Shown: piece after piece, positions 3,562 through 11,931 of the stretch | Position numbering within the stretch: the stretch's first letter is position 1 | Layout: each line of letters begins with the position of its first letter | Source of the DNA: a virus | Virus genome (UHGV): UHGV-0805720 | Direction: 5' to 3' (one strand) | Length of the DNA: 12,139 bases | Made by a program: the position numbers and the translations under genes | The notes under the pieces: model-generated | What the model saw: only the letters and a program-made list of their open reading frames with translations | The model's database searches: none | What the model was told of the DNA's origin: nothing

Positions 3562-6500
3562 TTAGCACCGCGCAGTGTCTGTATCTGATATTCTCTTATC
3601 CCCTGCAAAAGGTGAATCAGCAAACTGATAGTGCAGAGCAGTCTCAAATAGATGTGTTGAGGTTCCGTTTTCTGCAAGAACTTGCTTACCTATTAAGTCA
3701 CACTTAATGATCATCACAACACGCTTGTAGCCGTTTGTTATCGGAACCTGCATAGATATGGATGTTCCGTCCATGTTCGATCTTAGTGCGGTCATGATGA
3801 TGTAAGGATCAACAGCATTACCCAAAGTTTCAGGTCCTGGAATTATCTTGTACTTCTTGACCTGCCCCATGAATCTGTCGCTGGCGTAAGTTGCAGCCTC
3901 GAAGCAAGATCCACCACCAGGTAGTTCCCCCGGACCCCAGAAAAATGCGCCATAACAGTTATAAAACCACTTGTTAGGGTCATATTTATTCTTGAAGGTC
4001 TGAACCTCGTTGGCCTGTTTTGTCAAGAAAACCTGCGTATCTGTGAAGATTGCAGGGTTTACTCTCGCCTGTCTTGGAGGGTAACCTGTTGATTGGTTAA
4101 ACCACTGATTGCAAGAGATATCCCTCATGTAGTCATAATCAGAGTATTTGTTTACATCTTCGTTCCAACACATGTTCAGGTTGGTACCGCCCATGCATAC
4201 AATATATTCTGCGACATACTTATCACTTCTGGTAGGAATACCTATGAACCATCTGTTAACAGGCTCATCCCAAGCTGTGCGCTCATCTTTAACGCAGATA
4301 GCAATCCAGTCATGTGTTCCTGTTTTCTTGCACACATCTCGCTTCATACCATAGTAGAACTCTTTAGTATTCGGCTCAGGTGCATTTATCAGGTAACTCC
4401 ATGCCTGATTTGCATAAGTCCCATTGGTGCGCGGATCATGATCAAAGGCATACATGATGATCCTTTCCCCACCAAGATGTTCGCCAAGAGTAACTTTGAC
4501 ATTCACATCGCCGTAACCGTTGCGAACAACATCCATATTGTCAATAGAGATGCCTCTAGGAGTGTAGGCAATTTTCAGTGAGTTATCCTCACTAGTGCCA
4601 CCAAGAGTGATCCCTATGTTGTTTGTTGTCCCGTCGGCATATCTTACTGTAGCTTCCCAGCGTATTCCGAAATATCCTACATCATGGCTGACAATTTTCA
4701 GTGTACGAGCGCCAGGGTGAGGTTTTCCAGGATCAGGCCAAGGGTCTGGGTGTTCGTGGACAGTTAACGACGTTCCGTTCTGCTCGTTAACCTGCAACAT
4801 TTTACCACCTCTGCCGTTAGGGTTGAACTCCCATACGGCCTGTGTCTGCACCAAGTTGTTGTAGGTATTTCTTCTCTGATCATAAATCTCTTGGGTAACA
4901 TCATAAGTGACTGATCCAGCATCCATTCTGTGAAGTCGGACCATGTACGATGTATCCCCTTCTACTGCAGGCTGAGTCCCATTCAGTCCGAAGTATACAG
5001 TATCGTTAACATGGAACTGCTTGTTTCTACCAACGGTATGCCACTTGCCGTTGGACGGATACGCAGGAACTATGGTGTTCCAGTTCAAAGTCCTTGTCGT
5101 GTGAGTTCTGCCTGTGCCATGCTTGTCATGATAGGTTATTTTTACAGAGTACAGGCCACGTCTGTTAACATTCCTGTTATACTGGGTAACAATAACTTCA
5201 TTGGCCCCACCGTGGTTCCAGTTGGTAGAGAATTGGTAATTTGCATCTGTAACAACCGTGCCTGCAGCATTTACCAGTTCAATCTTGTCAATAATGAACG
5301 TAGCCCCCTCTGGCTGAGGCTTCAATTTCATCTTGACCGTGTCACCAATGTAAATATTGCTAACGCTGCTAACACCGTTAACGTCGAAAATATCATCAAC
5401 ACCCCAACTGTCTACCGGGACATTTTTATACCAATTCTCAGGAACCTCTGTGAACCCCTGACTATTAAGTCTGCCGCCAAACAGGTTGTTAGATCCTGCA
5501 AAACTTCCCCTTGGAATTCCTGACCACCAAAGTTTACCATTAACAACAGTAAATGTTCCTAAGAAACCTTCCCTGTGGATTCCTTGGAAATAAACACTCT
5601 CTGTCCAGCTAACTGGCAGGCGTTGCTCAACATATTTAGCTGTAGCAAGAGCTTGATAGTGGATAAAATCGGCCCTAGGACTATTGTTTGCAGATTGTGC
5701 ACCAATATCATTACATAAGTTGCGAGAGAACCCACGATACTGCTTAGTGCCATTATTGAAGAAAATGCCGCTTGTGCCGTACCCACGAGCCATTATTACC
5801 TCATGGGTGTAGGTGATATTCAGTTCCCGCCATGTATCATCTCCCCAAATGTTTTGACCATAGAATACGTTAACAAGCTGCTGGTCATCGGGTCTATGCA
5901 TCCTCTGTGTAGCAATTATTGCCCCGTTAGGACCACACATAAACCCTTTCCACTCCTCGTCTGCAGGAATGCCTCTCAAATCGTTACGGGTGATCTGTAC
6001 AGGAGGCCAAACAAGGTCATTTCTACTGTTGTTTCTCAGAAAGTCGTATCCAGCAATCCAGAAACCTCTAGGACCACCGAAGATAACAGAGTTGTCATGC
6101 ACCTCGCAATTAATGCTTTGGTTTTTCCAAGGACCTGTTTCAGGATTCTCAGATGTCTCACCAATTTTTACAGGGGTTGCATGTTGATTTTTATCCACAT
6201 GTAAAGATCCATAGGTGTTGTTACCAGACCCATACAGGTGTAAAATACCGTTACCTTCAGCCTCTGCAATAACCCAGACAGTGTTGTTAATGCCGCCCAT
6301 CACCTCAACAAGGCGCTCTGGGTGGGTGTCAAGGTGCAATCCTTTAACGATTTGTTCTGGAAGAGGTGTCCACTCCCTTACACAAACATCATTACCGCCT
6401 GCAGCATCAGACCCAATAAGCCCTGCAGTACAGCCGATGTAGAAAAACTGATTATCAAAAGTTCGGATCACAAACGCACGGTCTGCTCTCCACACATGAT

Positions 6501-6762: not shown

Positions 6763-6793
6763 CAGATAAGAAAACCGCCCCGTCAGGAGCGGT
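6763..6793 (-). terminator. intrinsic terminator/attenuator between the 581-aa and 1063-aa genes
   Basis: On the minus strand: CCGCTCC-TGAC-GGGGCGG hairpin (6/7 bp paired) followed by TTTTCTTATCT, directly after stop TAA 6802-6804. No room for a separate promoter before the 1063-aa gene start. Confidence 0.5.
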
Positions 6794-6801
6794 CAGATAT
6801 A

Positions 6802-8547
6802 TTAACGTTGTGCAATAACCACATCCACAATATCACCAACACCACAATATGTCAATTGTAGCAAGGTGACGCTGTTGGCCTTGTTGTTAATAACAGGCGT
6901 TGCCGACAAGATGGCATACTTATCGTGTAAAGTCACGTTGTGACCTACAGCATCCTGAATGACATAGATGATTGCAGTGAACGGGTATGGTTTATCTTCA
7001 GCCGATGTTCCAGGCCACTGACCTATTGTAAAGTCACCTTTTGCGTGGACAACATACATATTGGCCTGCCCGTTAGGTGTCCATGTCCCACTGGATGCAT
7101 CAACCTCTTCTAAGTCAAAGTCTACTTTTCCTGCGTGGAAAGCAGGGGCAGTGATAGTTTTACCAGCCTCAATTCCTTGAGAGGTGGTTATCTTACCACT
7201 AGAGTTGATACCATTACAGACAAAGTTAACATTAGAGAAGTCTGGCAACCACCCGGTGACAGCACCTGATATTTCAAGGTTGTGGAGGTAGGTAGTTCCA
7301 GTCCCTGCTGCGTTCAAACTCACATCCCCATTAACTTGCAAGTTTCTGCTAACGTTGCAGTTTTCAGCGTTTGCAGTTGTTGCCGTTAAAGTGGTGGCAG
7401 TCAGGGAGGTAATTGCACCCTTATTGGCTGTAATCCCTTCTCCTTCAAAAGTGGCACGCTCGTTCACATTCAGAGTGTTTAAGGACAGGTTCTGCACAGA
7501 GGCTGTACCACGAATAACTATTGCCCCGCCAACCTCTAAATCTCCATTGATCAGTGCATCCCCTGTGCTTTCGATGTAGCTAGGGTAAATCATGGTGCCA
7601 TCAACAGAGTAGGTTATCCCTGTAACAGTGCCTGTCACTTCCAGGTTTTTAACCCTGGTGATACCATCAACCTGCAGTGTTGGTTCGGTCGCCGCCTTCA
7701 TGGCATTACCACGGATATACACATAGTCAAAGAAGTTGTTTCCAAGACCATTAAAATGCACATCATTGTTGTTTGCCACAGGTTTTCCAGATGTTATAGT
7801 GTCAGCTATAACCCTGTGCGTTGACACTTCGTGAGGCTGCAGTTCTGTGCTTTTCCAGTCCGTATGCTTAGGATCGCTCCAAGCGAAGGTAAGTGTAGAA
7901 GTATTTGCCGTGAGGATTAGGTTTCTGAAGCGTGCCGTAGAGTCTGCTCCGTTGACAGGCCCTTGTAGGGTAAGAGTCCCTCCAACTATGGTATTGGCAA
8001 GCTCTGAAAGACCTTTTACCACCAAAGAACCTACGGTAACTTTCATCCCCTCCATAGCTTCAAATATACTATCCACATAGTCAACAACAAACTCCGTGTT
8101 TGCTATAGACTCTGACTTATCATCCATTGGAGGTGTCGGTACTCGCGGATCACCTTCAAACCTCGGGCTGTTAAGCTTTGCATAGTACTTTGCCATTACT
8201 GCAGAGTCGGTATACAATCTCCAGTTTGCAGATTGTGAAGGGTCTGCTGGCATTCTAACCGGATTAGCTTTTGATGCCGCAGGCGCGTACCACCACTGAG
8301 GACCAGTGTCACCTTTAAACTCATAAAGTTGGTTAAAAACTGTTGTGGATGCCCCGTACGCCCAAGGAATTGGTGGCGTTTTAAAATAAAGGGTGTCAAG
8401 CATGGCTTTCCGTACCGTAGGGATGGTGGTGCCATCCTCTACGACAACTTCATCCACAGCGTTACCGTTGACAATCAAGTGCAGGCGTTCAGAATCCACA
8501 ATTACTTGATCTACCGCCTGCTCGAAGCTTGTCATGTCTTGCGCCAT
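6802..8547 (-). CDS. tail fiber/tailspike-like receptor-binding protein (581 aa)
   Basis: ATG 8547 with AAGGAGA SD. Central region is rich in short beta-strand repeats with T/N/G/V (e.g. 'TSLTATTLTATTANAENCNVSRNLQVNGDVSLNAAGTG'), typical of fibrous or beta-helical phage adhesins. Sits immediately after the tail fiber genes. Confidence 0.75.
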   Translation of the reverse strand: MAQDMTSFEQAVDQVIVDSERLHLIVNGNAVDEVVVEDGTTIPTVRKAMLDTLYFKTPPIPWAYGASTTVFNQLYEFKGDTGPQWWYAPAASKANPVRMPADPSQSANWRLYTDSAVMAKYYAKLNSPRFEGDPRVPTPPMDDKSESIANTEFVVDYVDSIFEAMEGMKVTVGSLVVKGLSELANTIVGGTLTLQGPVNGADSTARFRNLILTANTSTLTFAWSDPKHTDWKSTELQPHEVSTHRVIADTITSGKPVANNNDVHFNGLGNNFFDYVYIRGNAMKAATEPTLQVDGITRVKNLEVTGTVTGITYSVDGTMIYPSYIESTGDALINGDLEVGGAIVIRGTASVQNLSLNTLNVNERATFEGEGITANKGAITSLTATTLTATTANAENCNVSRNLQVNGDVSLNAAGTGTTYLHNLEISGAVTGWLPDFSNVNFVCNGINSSGKITTSQGIEAGKTITAPAFHAGKVDFDLEEVDASSGTWTPNGQANMYVVHAKGDFTIGQWPGTSAEDKPYPFTAIIYVIQDAVGHNVTLHDKYAILSATPVINNKANSVTLLQLTYCGVGDIVDVVIAQR

Positions 8548-8556
8548 GATTTCTCC

Positions 8557-8823
8557 TTAAGCTTTTTGCTCTTCGCTTTTAACGTGGTCAGGGTGCTGGC
8601 AACCCCACCGGAGCGAGATGAATTTGCTAATAAGCTGGGGACAGGCTACCGATGGTGCGTATATCCACGCATACCATTCAGGAAGTGTATCATTGTACCC
8701 CATGTGAATAAACACCCCAGTCATCACTGCCATGCCGATGTTCGACCATAGCTTAGATTGGGACACTTTTGTAGGGTCATCAGATGCCGCAACCAGTCCC
8801 CATAAAAACTGAGTCAGTTTCAT
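8557..8823 (-). CDS. small membrane protein (88 aa), holin-like architecture; function unknown
   Basis: ATG 8823 preceded by AAGAGGG SD that overlaps the stop of the tail-fiber remnant. Two to three hydrophobic segments and a charged C-terminus (KSEEQKA). Stop overlaps the SD of the 581-aa gene. Confidence 0.6.
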   Translation of the reverse strand: MKLTQFLWGLVAASDDPTKVSQSKLWSNIGMAVMTGVFIHMGYNDTLPEWYAWIYAPSVACPQLISKFISLRWGCQHPDHVKSEEQKA

Positions 8824-8849
8824 TTACCCTCTTTTTAAGCATAAGATAT

Positions 8850-8879
8850 AGTGATCCATTGACCGTTTACAAGTTTTTG
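8850..8879 (-). repeat. conserved 30-bp 3' tail-fiber junction, copy 1 (29/30 identical to 10906..10935)
   Basis: Minus-strand CAAAAACTTGTAAACGGTCAATGGATCACT encoding QKLVNGQWIT; the flanking about 15 bp on each side are also partly similar, while the rest of the two genes is diverged at the nucleotide level. Confidence 0.7.
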
Positions 8880-9001
8880 GATAGCACCTGTCCAATAGTC
8901 GCCTTGATATGGGTGTTTGTAAGCGTAGTTACCAGAACACATTACATGCCCTACGTAAACTCTTGATTCTCTGTAGGTGGTTCTGAAGCGGTTTGCTATT
9001 C

Positions 9002-9760
9002 TTACATCGTCAATCCCCTGCTGGGCATAGGAATGGTAAGATTGCCGCTGCTGTCTGCACTATTACCGTTAACCCTACGAACCACATTTCTACCACCGAC
9101 TATTGAATGCTGCCCCCGCACAGTTCCATCATTACAATCCAATCTTCCACCAACTTGGGCATTACCGCAAGATTGTTGTCCATTGACGGTAGCTCTTGGT
9201 ATCGTGACAGCATTAGCATTTGCAGAGGAACTTTTTGCGTCGTTGCATTCAAGATTCCCCTGGATAGCCAGTCTTGCACGATTGGCAGTTATAGCATTGA
9301 GCTTCATGGCAGAAAACACAGGCTGTCCACCAGAAGGTTGGAATCTCCAACGGAACCCGTCTATTTGATTAGAAGAGTCATCAAGATCTGCACCGTCTGC
9401 ACCACCAATATTGTCCATAATCCAGAAATCCATCAGCGTCTTGTCTGGAGTTATAGTGGTATATATTGCCGCACTATCTGTGGACGCAGATGCGAACTGT
9501 ATTCTTTGAAGACCTAGAGTTTGAGTCTGAGTCATTGTGTCCCCAGATTTGTCAACATACAGGTCGTCCATTTCTTCAGGGGAGTATACATTGAGAACTT
9601 GGCGTGCAGCAGCTTTGTCTGGAACGTCTGCTAGATTATTGGTAACCCTTAAAAATCTATTATCCCATCCTGGGACAACATCTTCTGTTAAATGTCTTAA
9701 CCACGCAGAAAGCATGTGAAGTTCAAAGTTAACAACTTCACATGCCACTCTTTGTGTCAT
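9002..9760 (-). CDS. tail fiber protein, central fragment (longest intact ORF of the frameshifted paralog)
   Basis: 252-aa ORF with clear homology to residues about 60-285 of the 346-aa tail fiber. Its ATG overlaps the stop of the 39-aa N-terminal piece (ATGA) and it has no SD of its own, so it is unlikely to be an independent gene. Confidence 0.5.
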   Translation of the reverse strand: MTQRVACEVVNFELHMLSAWLRHLTEDVVPGWDNRFLRVTNNLADVPDKAAARQVLNVYSPEEMDDLYVDKSGDTMTQTQTLGLQRIQFASASTDSAAIYTTITPDKTLMDFWIMDNIGGADGADLDDSSNQIDGFRWRFQPSGGQPVFSAMKLNAITANRARLAIQGNLECNDAKSSSANANAVTIPRATVNGQQSCGNAQVGGRLDCNDGTVRGQHSIVGGRNVVRRVNGNSADSSGNLTIPMPSRGLTM

Positions 9761-9906
9761 ATCCCAACCTTCAGTCTCTCTTCTTTTTTTGGTTGAGACT
9801 TATTCAACTCTCCTGTATTTTCAAGCACAACATCCTGATTGGCCCAAATATCAAGAGGGATAACTGGTTTAGCCATCACGTTCTCCTGAGAAAATTCCTT
9901 AGGACT

Positions 9907-9935
9907 ATTTTAACACTTTAGAGAACAAAATGCAA
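9907..9935 (-). promoter_or_regulatory. candidate sigma70-like promoter upstream of the second tail fiber gene
   Basis: On the minus strand: TTGCAT (9935..9930), 17-nt spacer, TAAAAT (9912..9907); lies between the stop of the 104-aa gene and the SD AGGAGA of the tail fiber N-terminal ORF. A weak hairpin (ACGGA..TCCGT) precedes it. Confidence 0.3.
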
Positions 9936-9965
9936 GAACGGAGTCCTTTCCGTCCTGACCTTTGT

Positions 9966-10280
9966 TTACCTTTTACTATGCTCTACGAGCATGTGCAAAA
10001 TCTTTTGCACGTCAGCTCGGATACCGGAGACATCTGTTCTGACATCTTGCTTAAGGTCGTTAATATCGGCCTCTAGCTTACTTAACCGGGTCTCGATAAT
10101 GGAATCAAGTCTATCTTTTGTAACCATGCTATTTTTCACTAAGATGAGGTCTTTCTCCAGCTCATCCAACCTCTTGGAAATACCTTTCCATTTGGTGTGC
10201 CACTGGTTGAAAGCCCATACACAGATCGGGACAACGGTACCCATGCAGATACCGTACAACGCCGCCAAATCCAACTCCAC
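9966..10280 (-). CDS. small membrane-anchored coiled-coil protein (104 aa), GTG start; function unknown (i-spanin-like topology)
   Basis: GTG 10280 with strong SD GAGGAGG 4 nt upstream, placed 9 nt after the Tfa stop (translational coupling). N-terminal hydrophobic helix 'LAALYGICMGTVVPICVWAF' followed by a heptad-rich, charged C-terminal region. Confidence 0.65.
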   Translation of the reverse strand: MELDLAALYGICMGTVVPICVWAFNQWHTKWKGISKRLDELEKDLILVKNSMVTKDRLDSIIETRLSKLEADINDLKQDVRTDVSGIRADVQKILHMLVEHSKR

Positions 10281-10291
10281 AACACCTCCTC

Positions 10292-10876
10292 TTAGAGGGT
10301 AGGTCGTTCCGGGAAGAAAATGTCAGGGGCTTTAGATGTATCTATTTCAAGAAGTTTTACCCTGTACATTTTCAAATCTCTGATGTTGCGTTTTTGGTCA
10401 TCAGTAAGATCATATTCAAGGTCAATCATGTCTTGATAGGCACCAATTCTAGCAGTAGCCCAAGCAAGTTCTGTCTCTATGACACCCTCTGCCTGTTGAA
10501 CAAAGAATTCATTATCTGTGACAAATTCATCACCAACTAAACGCAAAGCGTCGTGGTGGAGCATAATGTTTTCTGGTACCTCTTCTTTTTTGGCGATAAC
10601 CACACGAAGACCTGGAGCAGGCCATAAGGCATCAGGCTCTTCTGTAGATGTCTTAAGAATACCCTTCTCGTCAACAAGTAGGAATATACAACCAGGGTTT
10701 TCTTGTCGTAATGTTCTGGACTGCACATACCAATCGCCGTCATCATTACGTAAAAAATACCCTGTGTATGCAGTATAATCCTCAACCTCTTGAGGGGTTA
10801 ACTCTTTGGTTTCCTCATTGGCAGAGTATTCGCCAGACCCTGGCTGGTAAAGTTTAAACTCTTGAAGTATTTTCAT
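10292..10876 (-). CDS. tfa: tail fiber assembly chaperone (Tfa / Caudo_TAP family)
   Basis: 194 aa; ATG 10876 with GGAGGA SD, directly downstream of the tail fiber gene. C-terminal motif '...LKMYRVKLLEIDTSKAPDIFFPERP' matches the conserved Tfa ending (..W.KYR..L..VD.S.APDI.WP..P) as recalled for lambda Tfa / P2 G / Mu U. Confidence 0.85.
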   Translation of the reverse strand: MKILQEFKLYQPGSGEYSANEETKELTPQEVEDYTAYTGYFLRNDDGDWYVQSRTLRQENPGCIFLLVDEKGILKTSTEEPDALWPAPGLRVVIAKKEEVPENIMLHHDALRLVGDEFVTDNEFFVQQAEGVIETELAWATARIGAYQDMIDLEYDLTDDQKRNIRDLKMYRVKLLEIDTSKAPDIFFPERPTL

Positions 10877-10890
10877 GCTAGTCCTCCGAT

Positions 10891-11931
10891 CTATGCATAA
10901 TTAACAGTGATCCACTGACCGTTTACAAGTTTTTGTAAAGGTCCTGCCCAGTAAGTTGAACCACGCATTTCTTTTTTATCACCAAAATGCCAGCCTGTGA
11001 CAACGTAGCCATTGCGGACTGGAGATTCAGAAACACCGTCAACAAGTCTTGCACCAATTCTAATGTCTTGCACACCTGTTTGCGGAATAGTGATCGTTAC
11101 ATCGCCGTTACCGTTGGCGGTTACACCGTTCACAGAGCGGACCACATTTCGGTTACCAACAACACAGTGCTGACTTCTCACAACCAGACTATCACAACTG
11201 GTGCCGCCATTGACATACAGTGACCCTGTAGTTAACTGGCTTCCCACATTGCAGTTGGTGAATGTTGCTGTGCTAGTAATGGTAAGGTTGTTGCACCTCA
11301 TGTTGTCTACAATTTCAACATTACCTATCACTTTTAGCAGTGCACGGTTAGCTGTGATGGCATTCAGGTACATCAAAGTAAACTCAGGGTTAATGTCCGG
11401 CTGAGTTGGTTGAAATCTCCAGCGGAATGCGTCTACTGTAGATGTTCCACCATCATCGAACGACCCTGTATTGTCACTCAATCCAAAATCAAGAGTTGTC
11501 TTGTCTGGACCGATGGTTGTCTCTATCCAAGCCTTATCCGTCTCGGCAGCTTTAAAGTTGATACGTTGCAGACCTAAAGGGCCTGTCATTGTATCCCCTG
11601 TAACTTTTACATACCTGGCATCTGCCTCTTCCTTAGTAATAATCCCAAGGTTTTTACGGGCAACAGGAATGTTCAAAAGATCGCTCAAGTTATTATCCCG
11701 TACCAGATAACGACCTTCTTGAGCGGGGATCTGCTCGTCAGCAATGTATTTTGCCCAAGTTCCGAGCATATTAAAAATATAGTTAAGCTCTTCACATGAT
11801 GGCTTTTGACCAAGATCCCAACCTTTTCTCCACAAATCATCAATCGGGCGCAGCCTGTTCTGTCTGTGGGTGTTAGGCAGAACCTGATCCTCCTCTGCCC
11901 AAATCTCTAATGGAAAACTAGGTTTTGACAT
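10891..11931 (-). CDS. tail fiber protein (346 aa), Tfa-dependent side-fiber type
   Basis: ATG 11931 with AGGAG SD. Its C-terminus 'GWHFGDKKEMRGSTYWAGPLQKLVNGQWITVNYA' resembles the conserved C-terminal end of P2 gpH / Mu S / lambda Stf-type fibers (from memory). Followed immediately by a Tfa chaperone gene. Paralogous to the 8835..9876 locus. Confidence 0.85.
   Translation of the reverse strand: MSKPSFPLEIWAEEDQVLPNTHRQNRLRPIDDLWRKGWDLGQKPSCEELNYIFNMLGTWAKYIADEQIPAQEGRYLVRDNNLSDLLNIPVARKNLGIITKEEADARYVKVTGDTMTGPLGLQRINFKAAETDKAWIETTIGPDKTTLDFGLSDNTGSFDDGGTSTVDAFRWRFQPTQPDINPEFTLMYLNAITANRALLKVIGNVEIVDNMRCNNLTITSTATFTNCNVGSQLTTGSLYVNGGTSCDSLVVRSQHCVVGNRNVVRSVNGVTANGNGDVTITIPQTGVQDIRIGARLVDGVSESPVRNGYVVTGWHFGDKKEMRGSTYWAGPLQKLVNGQWITVNYA
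10906..10935 (-). repeat. conserved 30-bp 3' tail-fiber junction, copy 2 (direct repeat of 8850..8879)
   Basis: Minus-strand CAAAAACTTGTAAACGGTCAGTGGATCACT encoding QKLVNGQWIT at the 3' end of the intact tail fiber gene, just upstream of the tfa SD. Confidence 0.7.

What the first reader, a model, noticed from the sequence alone, without database searches (positions are those of the whole stretch)
8557..8823. Fiber 2 is followed by a small holin-like membrane protein instead of a Tfa chaperone
Fiber 1 has the canonical downstream Tfa. Fiber 2 has the same conserved C-terminus (normally Tfa-dependent), but the gene in the chaperone position encodes an 88-aa protein with 2-3 hydrophobic segments and a charged tail. 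It could be a moron (superinfection exclusion or receptor masking), a lysis-timing protein, or a novel fiber accessory factor.
Basis: inference. Interest (0 to 1): 0.5.

Follow-up and report, generated by a model that had tools for sequence, protein, structure and literature searches.

The report
Probable holin inside tail-fibre operon
The small gene after the second short tail fibre of this rV5-like coliphage encodes a conserved two-helix inner-membrane protein whose relatives in other phages and prophages sit between the endolysin and spanin genes, so it is most likely a lysis (holin-type) protein and a candidate for the holin that has not yet been identified in rV5-like phages.

Summary
The ORF at 8557-8823 (minus strand, 88 aa) is real. 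It has a Shine-Dalgarno site. Against three Vequintavirus genomes it shows 12 synonymous and 1-2 nonsynonymous codon differences. It is the ortholog of rV5 gp29, annotated "membrane protein" (PHROG 1322, E 5e-32). AlphaFold2 gives a short N-terminal helix, a 22-residue helix, a 25-residue proline-kinked helix and a disordered charged tail. This is not a Tfa fold.

The new evidence comes from context. The family is homologous (hhalign 98.9%, E 1e-17) to small proteins that lie between an endolysin and Rz/Rz1-type spanin genes. This holds in Mu-like phages, Ralstonia phage RP13 and many betaproteobacterial prophages. At least 24 of 31 (viral contigs) and 30 of 35 (bacterial genomes) upstream neighbours are peptidoglycan hydrolases, from about nine Pfam families. 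None of the 27 viral-contig endolysins has a membrane anchor.

In rV5-like phages the lysis genes are scattered, and the papers I read call the holin unidentified or disagree on it. The most likely reading is therefore a class-II-type holin, or a holin partner, co-transcribed with tail-fibre genes, as T4 t and T7 17.5 are. It is not a replacement for Tfa.

Function is inferred, not shown. rV5 ORF129 is a rival holin candidate. Fiber 2 in this window is split by two 1-nt deletions.

The parts
8557..8823 (-). 88-aa gene, ortholog of rV5 gp29 (PHROG 1322 'membrane protein'); candidate holin or lysis protein
   Evidence: ORF; PHROG 1322 E 5e-32 over its full length, no Pfam or NCBIfam hit; 12 synonymous vs 1-2 nonsynonymous codon differences; annotated rv5_gp029 / nom_27 / bas56_0038 in reference genomes
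8695..8760 (-). codons 22-43: predicted transmembrane helix 1 (QSKLWSNIGMAVMTGVFIHMGY), carrying the family motif S-[HQ]-[TS]-K-x-W-x-N-[IV]-[GA]
   Evidence: AF2 helix 22-43, pLDDT 82-92; hydropathy; S21 and W26 nearly invariant across 69 representatives
8605..8679 (-). codons 49-73: predicted transmembrane helix 2, kinked at Pro62 (EWYAWIYAPSVACPQLISKFISLRW); the most conserved stretch among close relatives
   Evidence: AF2 helices 49-60 and 62-73; Wimley-White octanol minimum -5.0 at 50-68; invariant block in A1; Y55 and K67 nearly invariant family-wide
8560..8604 (-). codons 74-88: disordered, charged C-terminal tail (GCQHPDHVKSEEQKA), variable in length and sequence among relatives
   Evidence: pLDDT 56-70, no secondary structure; variable tails in A1 and A2; charge count
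8827..8833 (-). Shine-Dalgarno sequence AAGAGGG in the 11-nt spacer between the fiber 2 stop codon (8835-8837) and the ATG at 8823
   Evidence: read directly from the sequence
8835..9879 (-). short tail fibre 2 (paralog of fiber 1). It is split in this window into three frames by 1-nt deletions near 9013-9017 and 9769-9772; it is an intact 347 aa in reference phages
   Evidence: PHROG 4465; alignment with nom, AlexBoehm and rV5; indel list; translation of the C-terminal piece
9966..10280 (-). 104-aa protein with an N-terminal TMD plus a coiled coil (rV5 gp31, PHROG 5345). It recurs beside the 88-aa family in Vequintavirinae; its role is unknown
   Evidence: architecture resembles DUF2730/PHROG 462 proteins of Mu-like cassettes, but homology is unproven
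10292..10876 (-). tail fibre assembly protein (Tfa)
   Evidence: PF02413 E 8e-12; PHROG 136 E 3e-36
10891..11931 (-). short tail fibre 1
   Evidence: PHROG 4465 E 1e-170
6802..8547 (-). lateral tail fibre (581 aa) immediately downstream, probably co-transcribed
   Evidence: PHROG 4549; annotation in AlexBoehm
9935..9956 (-). terminator-like hairpin upstream of fiber 2 (consensus match only)
6773..6794 (-). terminator-like hairpin after the 581-aa fibre gene. Together with 9935-9956 it brackets a possible fiber2 / 88-aa / fibre transcription unit (consensus match only)

Best explanation
The 88-aa protein is an inner-membrane helical hairpin. [quoted passage not shown] It belongs to a widespread but functionally unassigned phage family (PHROG 1322, marginally related to Pfam DUF2644). 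In phages with compact genomes this family occupies the slot between the endolysin and the Rz/Rz1 spanin genes.

I propose that in rV5-like phages it acts as a class-II-type holin, or as an obligatory holin partner. It would be made late together with tail-fibre proteins, accumulate in the cytoplasmic membrane, and at a set time permeabilise it so that the soluble lysozyme-type endolysin (rV5 ORF89) reaches the cell wall. The spanins (rV5 ORF66/67) then disrupt the outer membrane.

Shown here: the gene is real and under purifying selection; the helical hairpin model; the homology to cassette-embedded proteins; the statistics of their neighbours; and the scattered layout of lysis genes in rV5. 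Inferred: membrane insertion and topology, late co-transcription, and hole formation.
For: (1) Homology. The rV5-like alignment against the cassette subfamily gives hhalign probability 98.9%, E 1.1e-17 over 70 columns. Pairwise, window vs P0129 is 31% identical over 58 aa. All 69 profile-search representatives hit PHROG 1322, as do P0129, Bise and RP13 ORF30.

(2) Cassette context, individual cases. Mu-like contigs L008 and L010-L012 read: M15 endolysin, family member, Rz with embedded Rz1 lipoprotein, TraR-like zinc finger..., Mu gp27, terminase. Pseudomonas phage Bise reads: Mor, M15 peptidase, family member..., terminase. Ralstonia phage RP13 reads: muramidase, family member, spanins. A Neisseria sicca prophage reads: GH108, family member, Rz, Rz1, TraR.

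(3) Cassette context, statistics. In IMG/VR, at least 24 of 31 immediate upstream ORFs carry Peptidase_M15_4/VanY, M15_3, Amidase_2, GH19, Phage_lysozyme or GH108. In GTDB genomes, 30 of 35 carry GH108, CHAP, Amidase_2/3, lysozyme, M15_3 or GH19. Of 51 downstream ORFs, 29 have an N-terminal TMD, and 29 loci have an embedded or overlapping lipobox ORF.

(4) None of 27 adjacent endolysins has a hydrophobic N-terminus, so they need a holin. Only 2 of 150 neighbouring TM ORFs match any PHROG holin.

(5) Structure. The protein is small, with two helices of 22 and 25 residues and a charged disordered tail. Some relatives add an N-terminal TMD, mirroring class II versus class I holin topologies.

(6) The rV5 endolysin has no SAR or signal segment. 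The spanins lie in the same minus-strand unit (genes 27-81) as gp29.

(7) The holin of this group is unresolved in the literature I read. PMC3606486 proposes gp129. PMC6658697 says it 'could not be positively identified'. PMC9862379 found none. PMC7344957 proposes a different protein in CB7.

(8) The phi92 cryo-EM inventory of baseplate and fibre proteins does not include the ortholog, and rV5 virion mass spectrometry did not flag gp29.

(9) Precedent, from my own knowledge: T4 t lies directly after tail-fibre gene 38, and T7 17.5 directly after fibre gene 17.
Against: No experiment on any family member was found. No Pfam, NCBIfam or PHROG holin model matches.

In this ortholog the hydrophobicity is weak (KD19 maximum 1.05), and the rV5 authors' TMHMM/Phobius screen did not list a TMD. 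The tail is not basic.

There is no endolysin or spanin in the window; in rV5 they lie roughly 40-50 kb away.

rV5 ORF129 has two strongly hydrophobic TMDs and a basic tail, so by sequence it looks more like a textbook holin.

In RP13 a PHROG-holin-like ORF32 precedes the endolysin. The family member there sits where P2 has LysA, which could mean an antiholin or regulator.

Mu-like cassettes also carry a DUF2730/PHROG 462 TM protein that could be the true hole-former.

The neighbour statistics were gathered with the Mu-like sub-alignment. They describe that subfamily, not the rV5-like one. Roughly half of the IMG/VR loci, mostly contigs of about 50-155 kb that include T4-like ones, show no cassette context.
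Confidence: 0.55

Rival explanations
1. It is a lysis-timing regulator (an antiholin or holin accessory, analogous in position to P2 LysA) and not the hole-former. The real holin of rV5-like phages would be another protein, such as ORF129.
For: In RP13 the order is holin-like ORF32, muramidase, family member, spanins. This matches P2 Y-K-lysA-lysB-lysC (the P2 order is from my own knowledge). rV5 ORF129 has two strong TMDs and a Lys/Arg-rich tail and was proposed as the holin in PMC3606486. The TM segments of the 88-aa protein are weakly hydrophobic.
Against: In most cassettes no recognisable holin accompanies the family: only 2 of 150 neighbouring TM ORFs hit a PHROG holin. In 17 of 27 loci the ORF upstream of the endolysin has no TMD. 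ORF129 homologs are confined to Vequintavirus (116 records), whereas the 88-aa family spans the whole rV5/phi92/PVP-SE1 group (359 records). ORF129 also lies among small genes of the early/middle-type unit.
Confidence: 0.2
2. It is a membrane-associated accessory factor for tail-fibre or baseplate assembly, for example a membrane platform or chaperone, and that is why it is retained inside the tail module.
For: It always lies within the baseplate/fibre gene block in Vequintavirus, Seunavirus, Klebsiella relatives and Justusliebigvirus, with tight spacing or overlap with structural genes.
Against: Its neighbours within that block differ between genera. Homologs in other phages sit in lysis cassettes, or alone among replication genes, and not next to fibres. 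It is absent from the phi92 structural inventory and from the rV5 virion MS list. It shows no Tfa-like fold or domain.
Confidence: 0.1
3. It is a moron-type membrane protein that protects the infected cell, through superinfection exclusion or receptor masking, as T4 Imm or T5 Llp/phi80 Cor do near receptor-binding genes.
For: PHROGs files family 1322 under 'moron, auxiliary metabolic gene and host takeover'. Exclusion genes do occur near receptor-binding genes in T5-like and lambdoid phages (from my own knowledge). In T4-like contigs the homolog stands alone on the opposite strand next to the DNA polymerase gene.
Against: The PHROG category only reflects the label 'membrane protein'. There is no lipobox: the first Cys is residue 61. 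There is no Pfam match to Imm or other exclusion families. The gene has no promoter-like site of its own on its strand and sits 11 nt behind a late structural gene. The tight linkage to endolysins and spanins across about nine hydrolase families is not expected for an exclusion gene.
Confidence: 0.08

Closest known systems
Class II holins (e.g. phage 21 S68, and T7 gp17.5 by position)
   Same: It is a small protein with two predicted helices long enough to span a membrane. A likely N-in/C-in topology follows from the acidic loop and from K/R residues flanking the helices. It has a hydrophilic, charged and variable C-terminal tail. Homologs lie next to soluble endolysins and Rz/Rz1 spanins. T7 17.5, like this gene, directly follows a tail-fibre gene (own knowledge).
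   Different: There is no detectable sequence or profile similarity to any Pfam, PHROG or NCBIfam holin family. The TMDs are less hydrophobic and the tail is not basic. There is an extra short N-terminal helix. Hole formation is untested.
T4 holin gene t (location only)
   Same: This is a large virulent myovirus with scattered lysis genes (endolysin, spanins and holin in different places). The T4 holin gene sits immediately downstream of the tail-fibre cluster, after gene 38 (own knowledge).
   Different: T4 T is about 218 aa with one TMD and a large periplasmic domain. The proteins are unrelated in sequence and architecture.
Pfam DUF2644 (PF10841)
   Same: Three of 69 family representatives match weakly, and several database members carry a precomputed PF10841 hit, including the cassette-embedded P0117 and P0129. 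One source names a 71%-identical relative DUF2644.
   Different: The window protein itself gives no PF10841 hit even at E 0.1. DUF2644 has no assigned function, and I found no paper mentioning it.
P2 LysA (antiholin-like lysis regulator between endolysin K and spanins LysB/LysC)
   Same: The gene position between endolysin and spanins is the same. In Ralstonia phage RP13 the whole order (holin-like, endolysin, family member, i-spanin, o-spanin) mirrors P2 (the P2 order is from my own knowledge).
   Different: No similarity to P2 LysA could be tested here. LysA is larger, with more TMDs (own knowledge). Most cassettes containing this family lack a separate recognisable holin.
Mu gp25 releasin / DUF2730 (relevant to the neighbouring 104-aa gene, not the 88-aa gene)
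   Same: PHROG 462/DUF2730-type proteins (N-terminal TMD plus cytoplasmic helical domain) co-occur with the 88-aa family in Mu-like cassettes. The window's 104-aa protein has the same architecture and lies two genes upstream. PMC9239132 shows that Mu gp25 releases a SAR endolysin, and that DUF2730 proteins also occur in Mu-like phages with cytoplasmic endolysins, where their role is unknown.
   Different: The 104-aa protein has no Pfam DUF2730 hit. Profile-profile similarity is only 84% over 46 columns that include the TMD, which is inconclusive. The rV5 endolysin is not a SAR endolysin.

Membership tests
Holin (functional class) | Small protein with at least one transmembrane domain | tested here: met
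   88 aa. AF2 gives helices 22-43 and 49-73. Wimley-White octanol minima are -3.1 and -5.0. The KD score is weak (1.05), but distant homologs are clearly hydrophobic and some add a third TMD. No dedicated TM predictor was available.
Holin (functional class) | Hydrophilic, highly charged C-terminal (cytoplasmic) tail | tested here: inconclusive
   The tail, residues 74-88, is polar and disordered with 2 K, 3 D/E and 2 H, net -1. It is charged but not basic. Relatives have longer D/R/Y/S-rich tails ending in RR.
Holin (functional class) | Gene clustered with endolysin and/or spanin genes | tested here: not met
   This is not met in this window or in rV5, where the endolysin ORF89 and spanins ORF66/67 are about 40-50 kb away. 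It is met for homologs: at least 24 of 31 and 30 of 35 upstream neighbours are peptidoglycan hydrolases, and about 29 loci have Rz/Rz1-like genes downstream. Scattered lysis genes are normal in large virulent myoviruses (T4; own knowledge).
Holin (functional class) | Late expression | not testable with these tools
   Inferred only. The gene lies 11 nt after a tail-fibre gene and 9 nt before another, with no promoter-like site on its strand. It falls in rV5 transcription unit 27-81, which holds the structural genes.
Holin (functional class) | Lethal membrane permeabilisation that can be triggered prematurely by energy poisons and that releases endolysin | not testable with these tools
   This needs expression experiments.
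Curated holin sequence families (Pfam Phage_holin_*, NCBIfam, PHROG 'holin') | Significant HMM match | tested here: not met
   There were no hits for the window protein at E 0.1 in Pfam or NCBIfam. None of the 69 representatives hits a holin Pfam family. The only PHROG hit is 1322.
PHROG 1322 ('membrane protein') | Full-length HMM match | tested here: met
   E 5.2e-32, residues 1-87 against profile positions 1-86 of 87.
Pfam DUF2644 (PF10841) | HMM match above the gathering threshold | tested here: not met
   There is no hit for the window protein. Hits are weak for 3 of 69 relatives, and precomputed weak hits exist for some others.
Tail fibre assembly protein (Caudo_TAP, PF02413) | Caudo_TAP domain or a soluble Tfa-like fold | tested here: not met
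   There is no PF02413 hit for the 88-aa protein, whereas the true Tfa at 10292-10876 hits at 8e-12. The AF2 model is an all-helical hairpin.
Superinfection-exclusion proteins near receptor-binding genes (Cor/Llp lipoproteins, T4 Imm) | Lipobox signal peptide, or a match to an Imm-type family | tested here: not met
   There is no Cys before residue 61 and no lipobox (sequence). No Pfam hit of any kind was found.

The most novel reading that the evidence does not exclude
PHROG 1322 (with the DUF2644 fringe) is an unrecognised, widespread holin family. It would supply the missing holin of the rV5/phi92/PVP-SE1 group of therapeutic myoviruses, and of Mu-like phages and Neisseriaceae/Nitrosomonadaceae prophages that have soluble endolysins. 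In the rV5 group it may act together with the neighbouring TMD-plus-coiled-coil protein (gp31, releasin-like architecture) as a two-gene lysis-timing module embedded in the tail-fibre operon, which would couple lysis timing to production of the last virion parts.
Probability: 0.35. Interest if true: 0.55.

Novelty: new member of a known kind. Interest (0 to 1): 0.4.

Why it matters
rV5-like, phi92-like and PVP-SE1-like myoviruses are widely used in phage-therapy and biocontrol cocktails. Genome papers on these groups either fail to name a holin or propose conflicting candidates. A testable candidate with family-level support would complete their lysis pathway. It would allow lysis timing to be engineered. 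It would also give a function to a protein family currently labelled only "membrane protein" or DUF in hundreds of phage and prophage genomes, including Mu-like phages whose soluble endolysins imply an unidentified holin. It is not a new kind of system: holins are diverse, and holin genes beside tail-fibre genes are known from T4 and T7.

Tried and rejected
- Pfam, NCBIfam and PHROG scans of the 88-aa protein and of 69 relatives looking for holin, Imm or Tfa families found nothing beyond PHROG 1322 and marginal DUF2644.
- Foldseek of the AF2 model against BFVD returned only uncharacterised family members and noise. One entry labelled 'Holin' at E about 1 is not meaningful.
- The first word-indexed homolog search returned only 13 close relatives. 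The search for related loci with the broad alignment A2 failed for lack of a conserved stretch, so I used a Mu-like sub-alignment instead. This biases the context statistics towards that subfamily.
- A literature search for DUF2644 returned nothing. The supplement of the Mu releasin paper mentions neither DUF2644 nor a holin.
- The experimentally studied Aeromonas holin Hol46 (PMC12817945) is described there with a single predicted TMD (residues 39-57) and constructs ending at residue 67. I did not treat it as a family member.
- I looked for T4-type late promoters (TATAAATA) upstream of the T4-like homologs and found no exact match, so I drew no conclusion.
- I tested whether the 104-aa neighbour is homologous to the Mu-like DUF2730/PHROG 462 proteins. 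BLASTP was not significant and hhalign gave 84% over the TMD region only, so this remains open.
- rV5 ORF90, a small TM ORF right after the endolysin, looks like a signal-peptide or lipoprotein sequence and not a holin.
They serve only as a rough yardstick.

Full report
**What the window is.** All long ORFs lie on the minus strand and form the tail-fibre module of an rV5-like myovirus (Vequintavirus). The best DNA match to the 2-kb stretch around the finding (8300-10300) is OX460980.1 at 98.2%. About 115 other Vequintavirus records match at roughly 92.5%.

The gene order, from high to low coordinates, is:
- short tail fibre 1 (10891-11931);
- Tfa (10292-10876; PF02413, E 8e-12);
- short tail fibre 2 (8835-9879);
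- the 88-aa ORF (8557-8823);
- a 581-aa lateral fibre (6802-8547);
- a giant fibre.

The same order, with intact genes, is annotated in rV5 (gp33 down to gp27), nom and AlexBoehm. The 88-aa ORF is the ortholog of rV5 gp29, annotated 'membrane protein'.

**Checking the observation.** The ORF is at the stated coordinates. It has an AAGAGGG Shine-Dalgarno site, starts 11 nt after the stop of fiber 2, and ends 9 nt before the next fibre gene. It is under purifying selection: 13-14 nucleotide differences from three reference phages give 12 synonymous and 1-2 nonsynonymous codon changes.

Its hydrophobic segments are moderate. The Kyte-Doolittle 19-mer maximum is 1.05. Wimley-White octanol minima are -3.1 at residues 25-43 and -5.0 at 50-68. 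This explains why the rV5 authors' TMHMM/Phobius screen listed no TMD for gp29.

AlphaFold2 with a 69-sequence alignment (pLDDT 78.6) gives a short N-terminal helix (2-11), a 22-residue helix (22-43), a proline-kinked 25-residue helix (49-60 and 62-73), and a disordered polar tail. Distant relatives have clearly hydrophobic segments at the same positions, and some add an N-terminal TMD. At family level this is therefore a membrane helical hairpin.

The fibre statements hold with one caveat. Fibers 1 and 2 are paralogs (43% identity) with a shared C-terminus. In this window, though, two 1-nt deletions split fiber 2 into three frames.

**Family and distribution.** The protein matches PHROG 1322 over its full length (E 5e-32). 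It matches no Pfam or NCBIfam model. tblastn finds it in 359 phage records: Vequintavirus, Seunavirus, Certrevirus, Klebsiella/Cronobacter/Pectobacterium relatives, Justusliebigvirus and Phapecoctavirus.

A profile search of 1.84 billion representatives gives 72 clusters at E<=1e-3. All 69 that were scanned hit PHROG 1322, and three hit DUF2644 weakly. The family signature is S-H-T-K-x-W-x-N-[IV]-[GA] at the start of helix 1 and Y-L-x-x-V-A ... S-K-[FWL]-[LI]-S at helix 2. These are followed by a variable charged tail.

**Position in relatives.** Within the rV5/phi92/PVP-SE1 group the gene always lies in the baseplate/fibre block, but its neighbours change.
- In SSE121 and a Klebsiella phage the order is fibre, Tfa, 104-aa, 157-aa, membrane protein, fibre.
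- In muut it lies between a 691-aa fibre and the baseplate wedge gene.

So it is not a positional substitute for a Tfa.

**The decisive evidence: lysis-cassette context elsewhere.**
- Two Mu-like contigs carry a homolog directly between a soluble M15 endolysin and an Rz i-spanin with an embedded Rz1 lipoprotein. Stop and start codons overlap, and a TraR-like zinc finger, Mu gp27 and terminase follow.
- Pseudomonas phage Bise has Mor, M15 peptidase, homolog..., terminase.
- Ralstonia phage RP13 has N-acetylmuramidase, homolog, i-spanin, o-spanin.
- A Neisseria sicca prophage has GH108, homolog, Rz, Rz1, TraR.

In a scan of IMG/VR, 31 of the 80 retained loci have a same-strand ORF of at least 120 aa ending just upstream. 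At least 24 of these carry peptidoglycan-hydrolase domains: M15_4/VanY 9, M15_3 4, Amidase_2 4, GH19 4, Phage_lysozyme 2, GH108 1. BLAST clustering is consistent with these counts.

In an independent scan of GTDB genomes, 30 of 35 upstream neighbours are hydrolases: GH108 16, CHAP 8, Amidase_2 2, and Amidase_3, lysozyme, M15_3 and GH19 one each.

Downstream, 29 of 51 ORFs have an N-terminal TMD, and 29 loci contain an embedded or overlapping lipobox ORF with a proline-rich Rz1-like sequence. Many hit PHROG spanin families.

None of 27 adjacent endolysins has a hydrophobic N-terminus, so they need a holin. Only 2 of 150 neighbouring TM ORFs hit any PHROG holin.

Linkage to about nine unrelated hydrolase families is the mosaic pattern expected of a lysis-cassette component. 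The rV5-like and cassette subfamilies are homologous: hhalign 98.9%, E 1e-17 over 70 columns, and 31% pairwise identity over 58 aa.

**The lysis system of rV5-like phages.** In rV5 the endolysin (ORF89) is soluble and lies in the plus-strand unit. The spanins (ORF66/67) lie next to the terminase in the same minus-strand unit 27-81 as gp29.

The literature I could read is unsettled on the holin:
- PMC3606486 proposes gp129 on TM prediction alone.
- PMC9862379 found none.
- PMC7344957 proposes an unrelated 65-aa protein in CB7.

None of them mentions gp29. A soluble endolysin implies a holin that is still missing. gp29 is the only small membrane protein of these phages that I found to have lysis-cassette homologs.

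**Proposed mechanism.** Inferred: the protein is made late with the fibre proteins. It inserts N-in/C-in, consistent with the acidic loop NDTLPE and with K/R residues at both helix ends. It accumulates in the cytoplasmic membrane and permeabilises it at a set time, releasing the endolysin. The spanins then finish lysis. T4 (gene t after gene 38) and T7 (gene 17.5 after gene 17) are precedents for holin genes beside fibre genes (own knowledge).

**Caveats and rivals.**
- No family member has been tested experimentally, as far as I could find.
- rV5 ORF129 has two strongly hydrophobic TMDs and a basic tail. However, it is confined to Vequintavirus and sits among early/middle-type small genes.
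- In RP13 a PHROG-holin-like ORF precedes the endolysin, so the family member there occupies the P2 LysA position and could be an antiholin.
- Mu-like cassettes also carry a DUF2730/PHROG 462 protein. PMC9239132 shows that Mu gp25 is a releasin for a SAR endolysin, and that the role of DUF2730 proteins beside cytoplasmic endolysins is unknown.
- The context statistics describe the Mu-like subfamily. In T4-like contigs a 3-TMD variant stands alone on the opposite strand between the DNA polymerase and dUTPase/regA genes.
- A structural role is unlikely but not excluded. The phi92 cryo-EM inventory and rV5 virion MS do not list the protein, but small membrane proteins are easily missed.

**Verdict.** The 'instead of Tfa' framing is not supported. 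My probabilities are:
- about 0.9 that this is an inner-membrane hairpin of PHROG 1322;
- about 0.75 that the family acts in lysis;
- about 0.55 that it is the holin, or an essential holin subunit, of rV5-like phages.

This is a new functional assignment for a known gene within a known kind of system. It is of moderate interest.

Noticed in passing
window ~2058, ~3565, ~9013-9017, ~9769-9772: Four uncompensated single-base indels, three of them at short homopolymer runs, relative to both OX460980.1 and phage nom. They split short tail fibre 2 into three frames. They also split the ~1875-aa giant fibre into ORFs of 1063, 546 and 321 aa, which match PHROG 15684 positions 1-1063, 1062-1565 and 1564-1877. 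This looks like sequencing or assembly error, though real pseudogenisation is not excluded.
   Followed up: partly
window 9966-10280 (-): A 104-aa protein with an N-terminal TMD plus a coiled coil (rV5 gp31, PHROG 5345) recurs near the 88-aa gene in Vequintavirinae. Proteins of the same architecture (PHROG 462 / DUF2730 releasin family) co-occur with the 88-aa family in Mu-like lysis cassettes (23 of 150 TM ORFs). Homology is unproven: hhalign gives 84% over 46 columns, BLASTP is not significant, and there is only a weak Pfam XhlA hit at E 0.014.
   Followed up: partly
L014 (Ralstonia phage RP13, LC554890.1) 4049-5907: The cassette order is holin-like ORF32 (PHROG 6384, E 3e-6), muramidase ORF31, family member ORF30, i-spanin ORF29, o-spanin ORF28. 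This mirrors P2 Y-K-lysA-lysB-lysC, so the family member may be an antiholin or second holin there.
   Followed up: partly
L007 7909-8354 and L009 8001-8420: In T4-like metagenomic contigs a 3-TMD variant of the family stands alone on the strand opposite to all its neighbours. It lies between the split DNA polymerase genes and dUTPase/regA/clamp-loader genes. The gene call for P0068 appears N-terminally truncated; an upstream ATG adds a TMD.
   Followed up: partly
window 9935-9956 (-) and 6773-6794 (-): Terminator-like hairpins bracket fiber 2, the 88-aa gene and the 581-aa fibre gene. This suggests they form one transcription unit separate from fiber 1, Tfa and the 104-aa gene. These are consensus matches only.
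   Followed up: no
phage collection hits: Sixteen to twenty-one GenBank records named 'Campylobacter phage' (host Campylobacter jejuni) match E. coli rV5-like phages across this region. The 2-kb DNA query matches at about 92% and the 88-aa protein at 98-99%. Their host labels look doubtful.
   Followed up: no
family alignment: Many relatives begin with two Met codons separated by a few residues that include Lys (MLKSIMKF..., MTDHQMKF..., MDMTELF...). This is reminiscent of the dual-start holin/antiholin motif. The window protein has a single Met.
   Followed up: no
L096 (rV5 NC_011041) 14110-14316 and 36059-36295: rV5 ORF90 lies directly after the endolysin and looks like a small secreted protein or lipoprotein (MKDFLLAILFMAACLACG...). 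ORF129 is a 78-aa protein with two strong TMDs and a basic tail. ORF129 is the published holin candidate, but it is restricted to Vequintavirus (116 records).
   Followed up: partly
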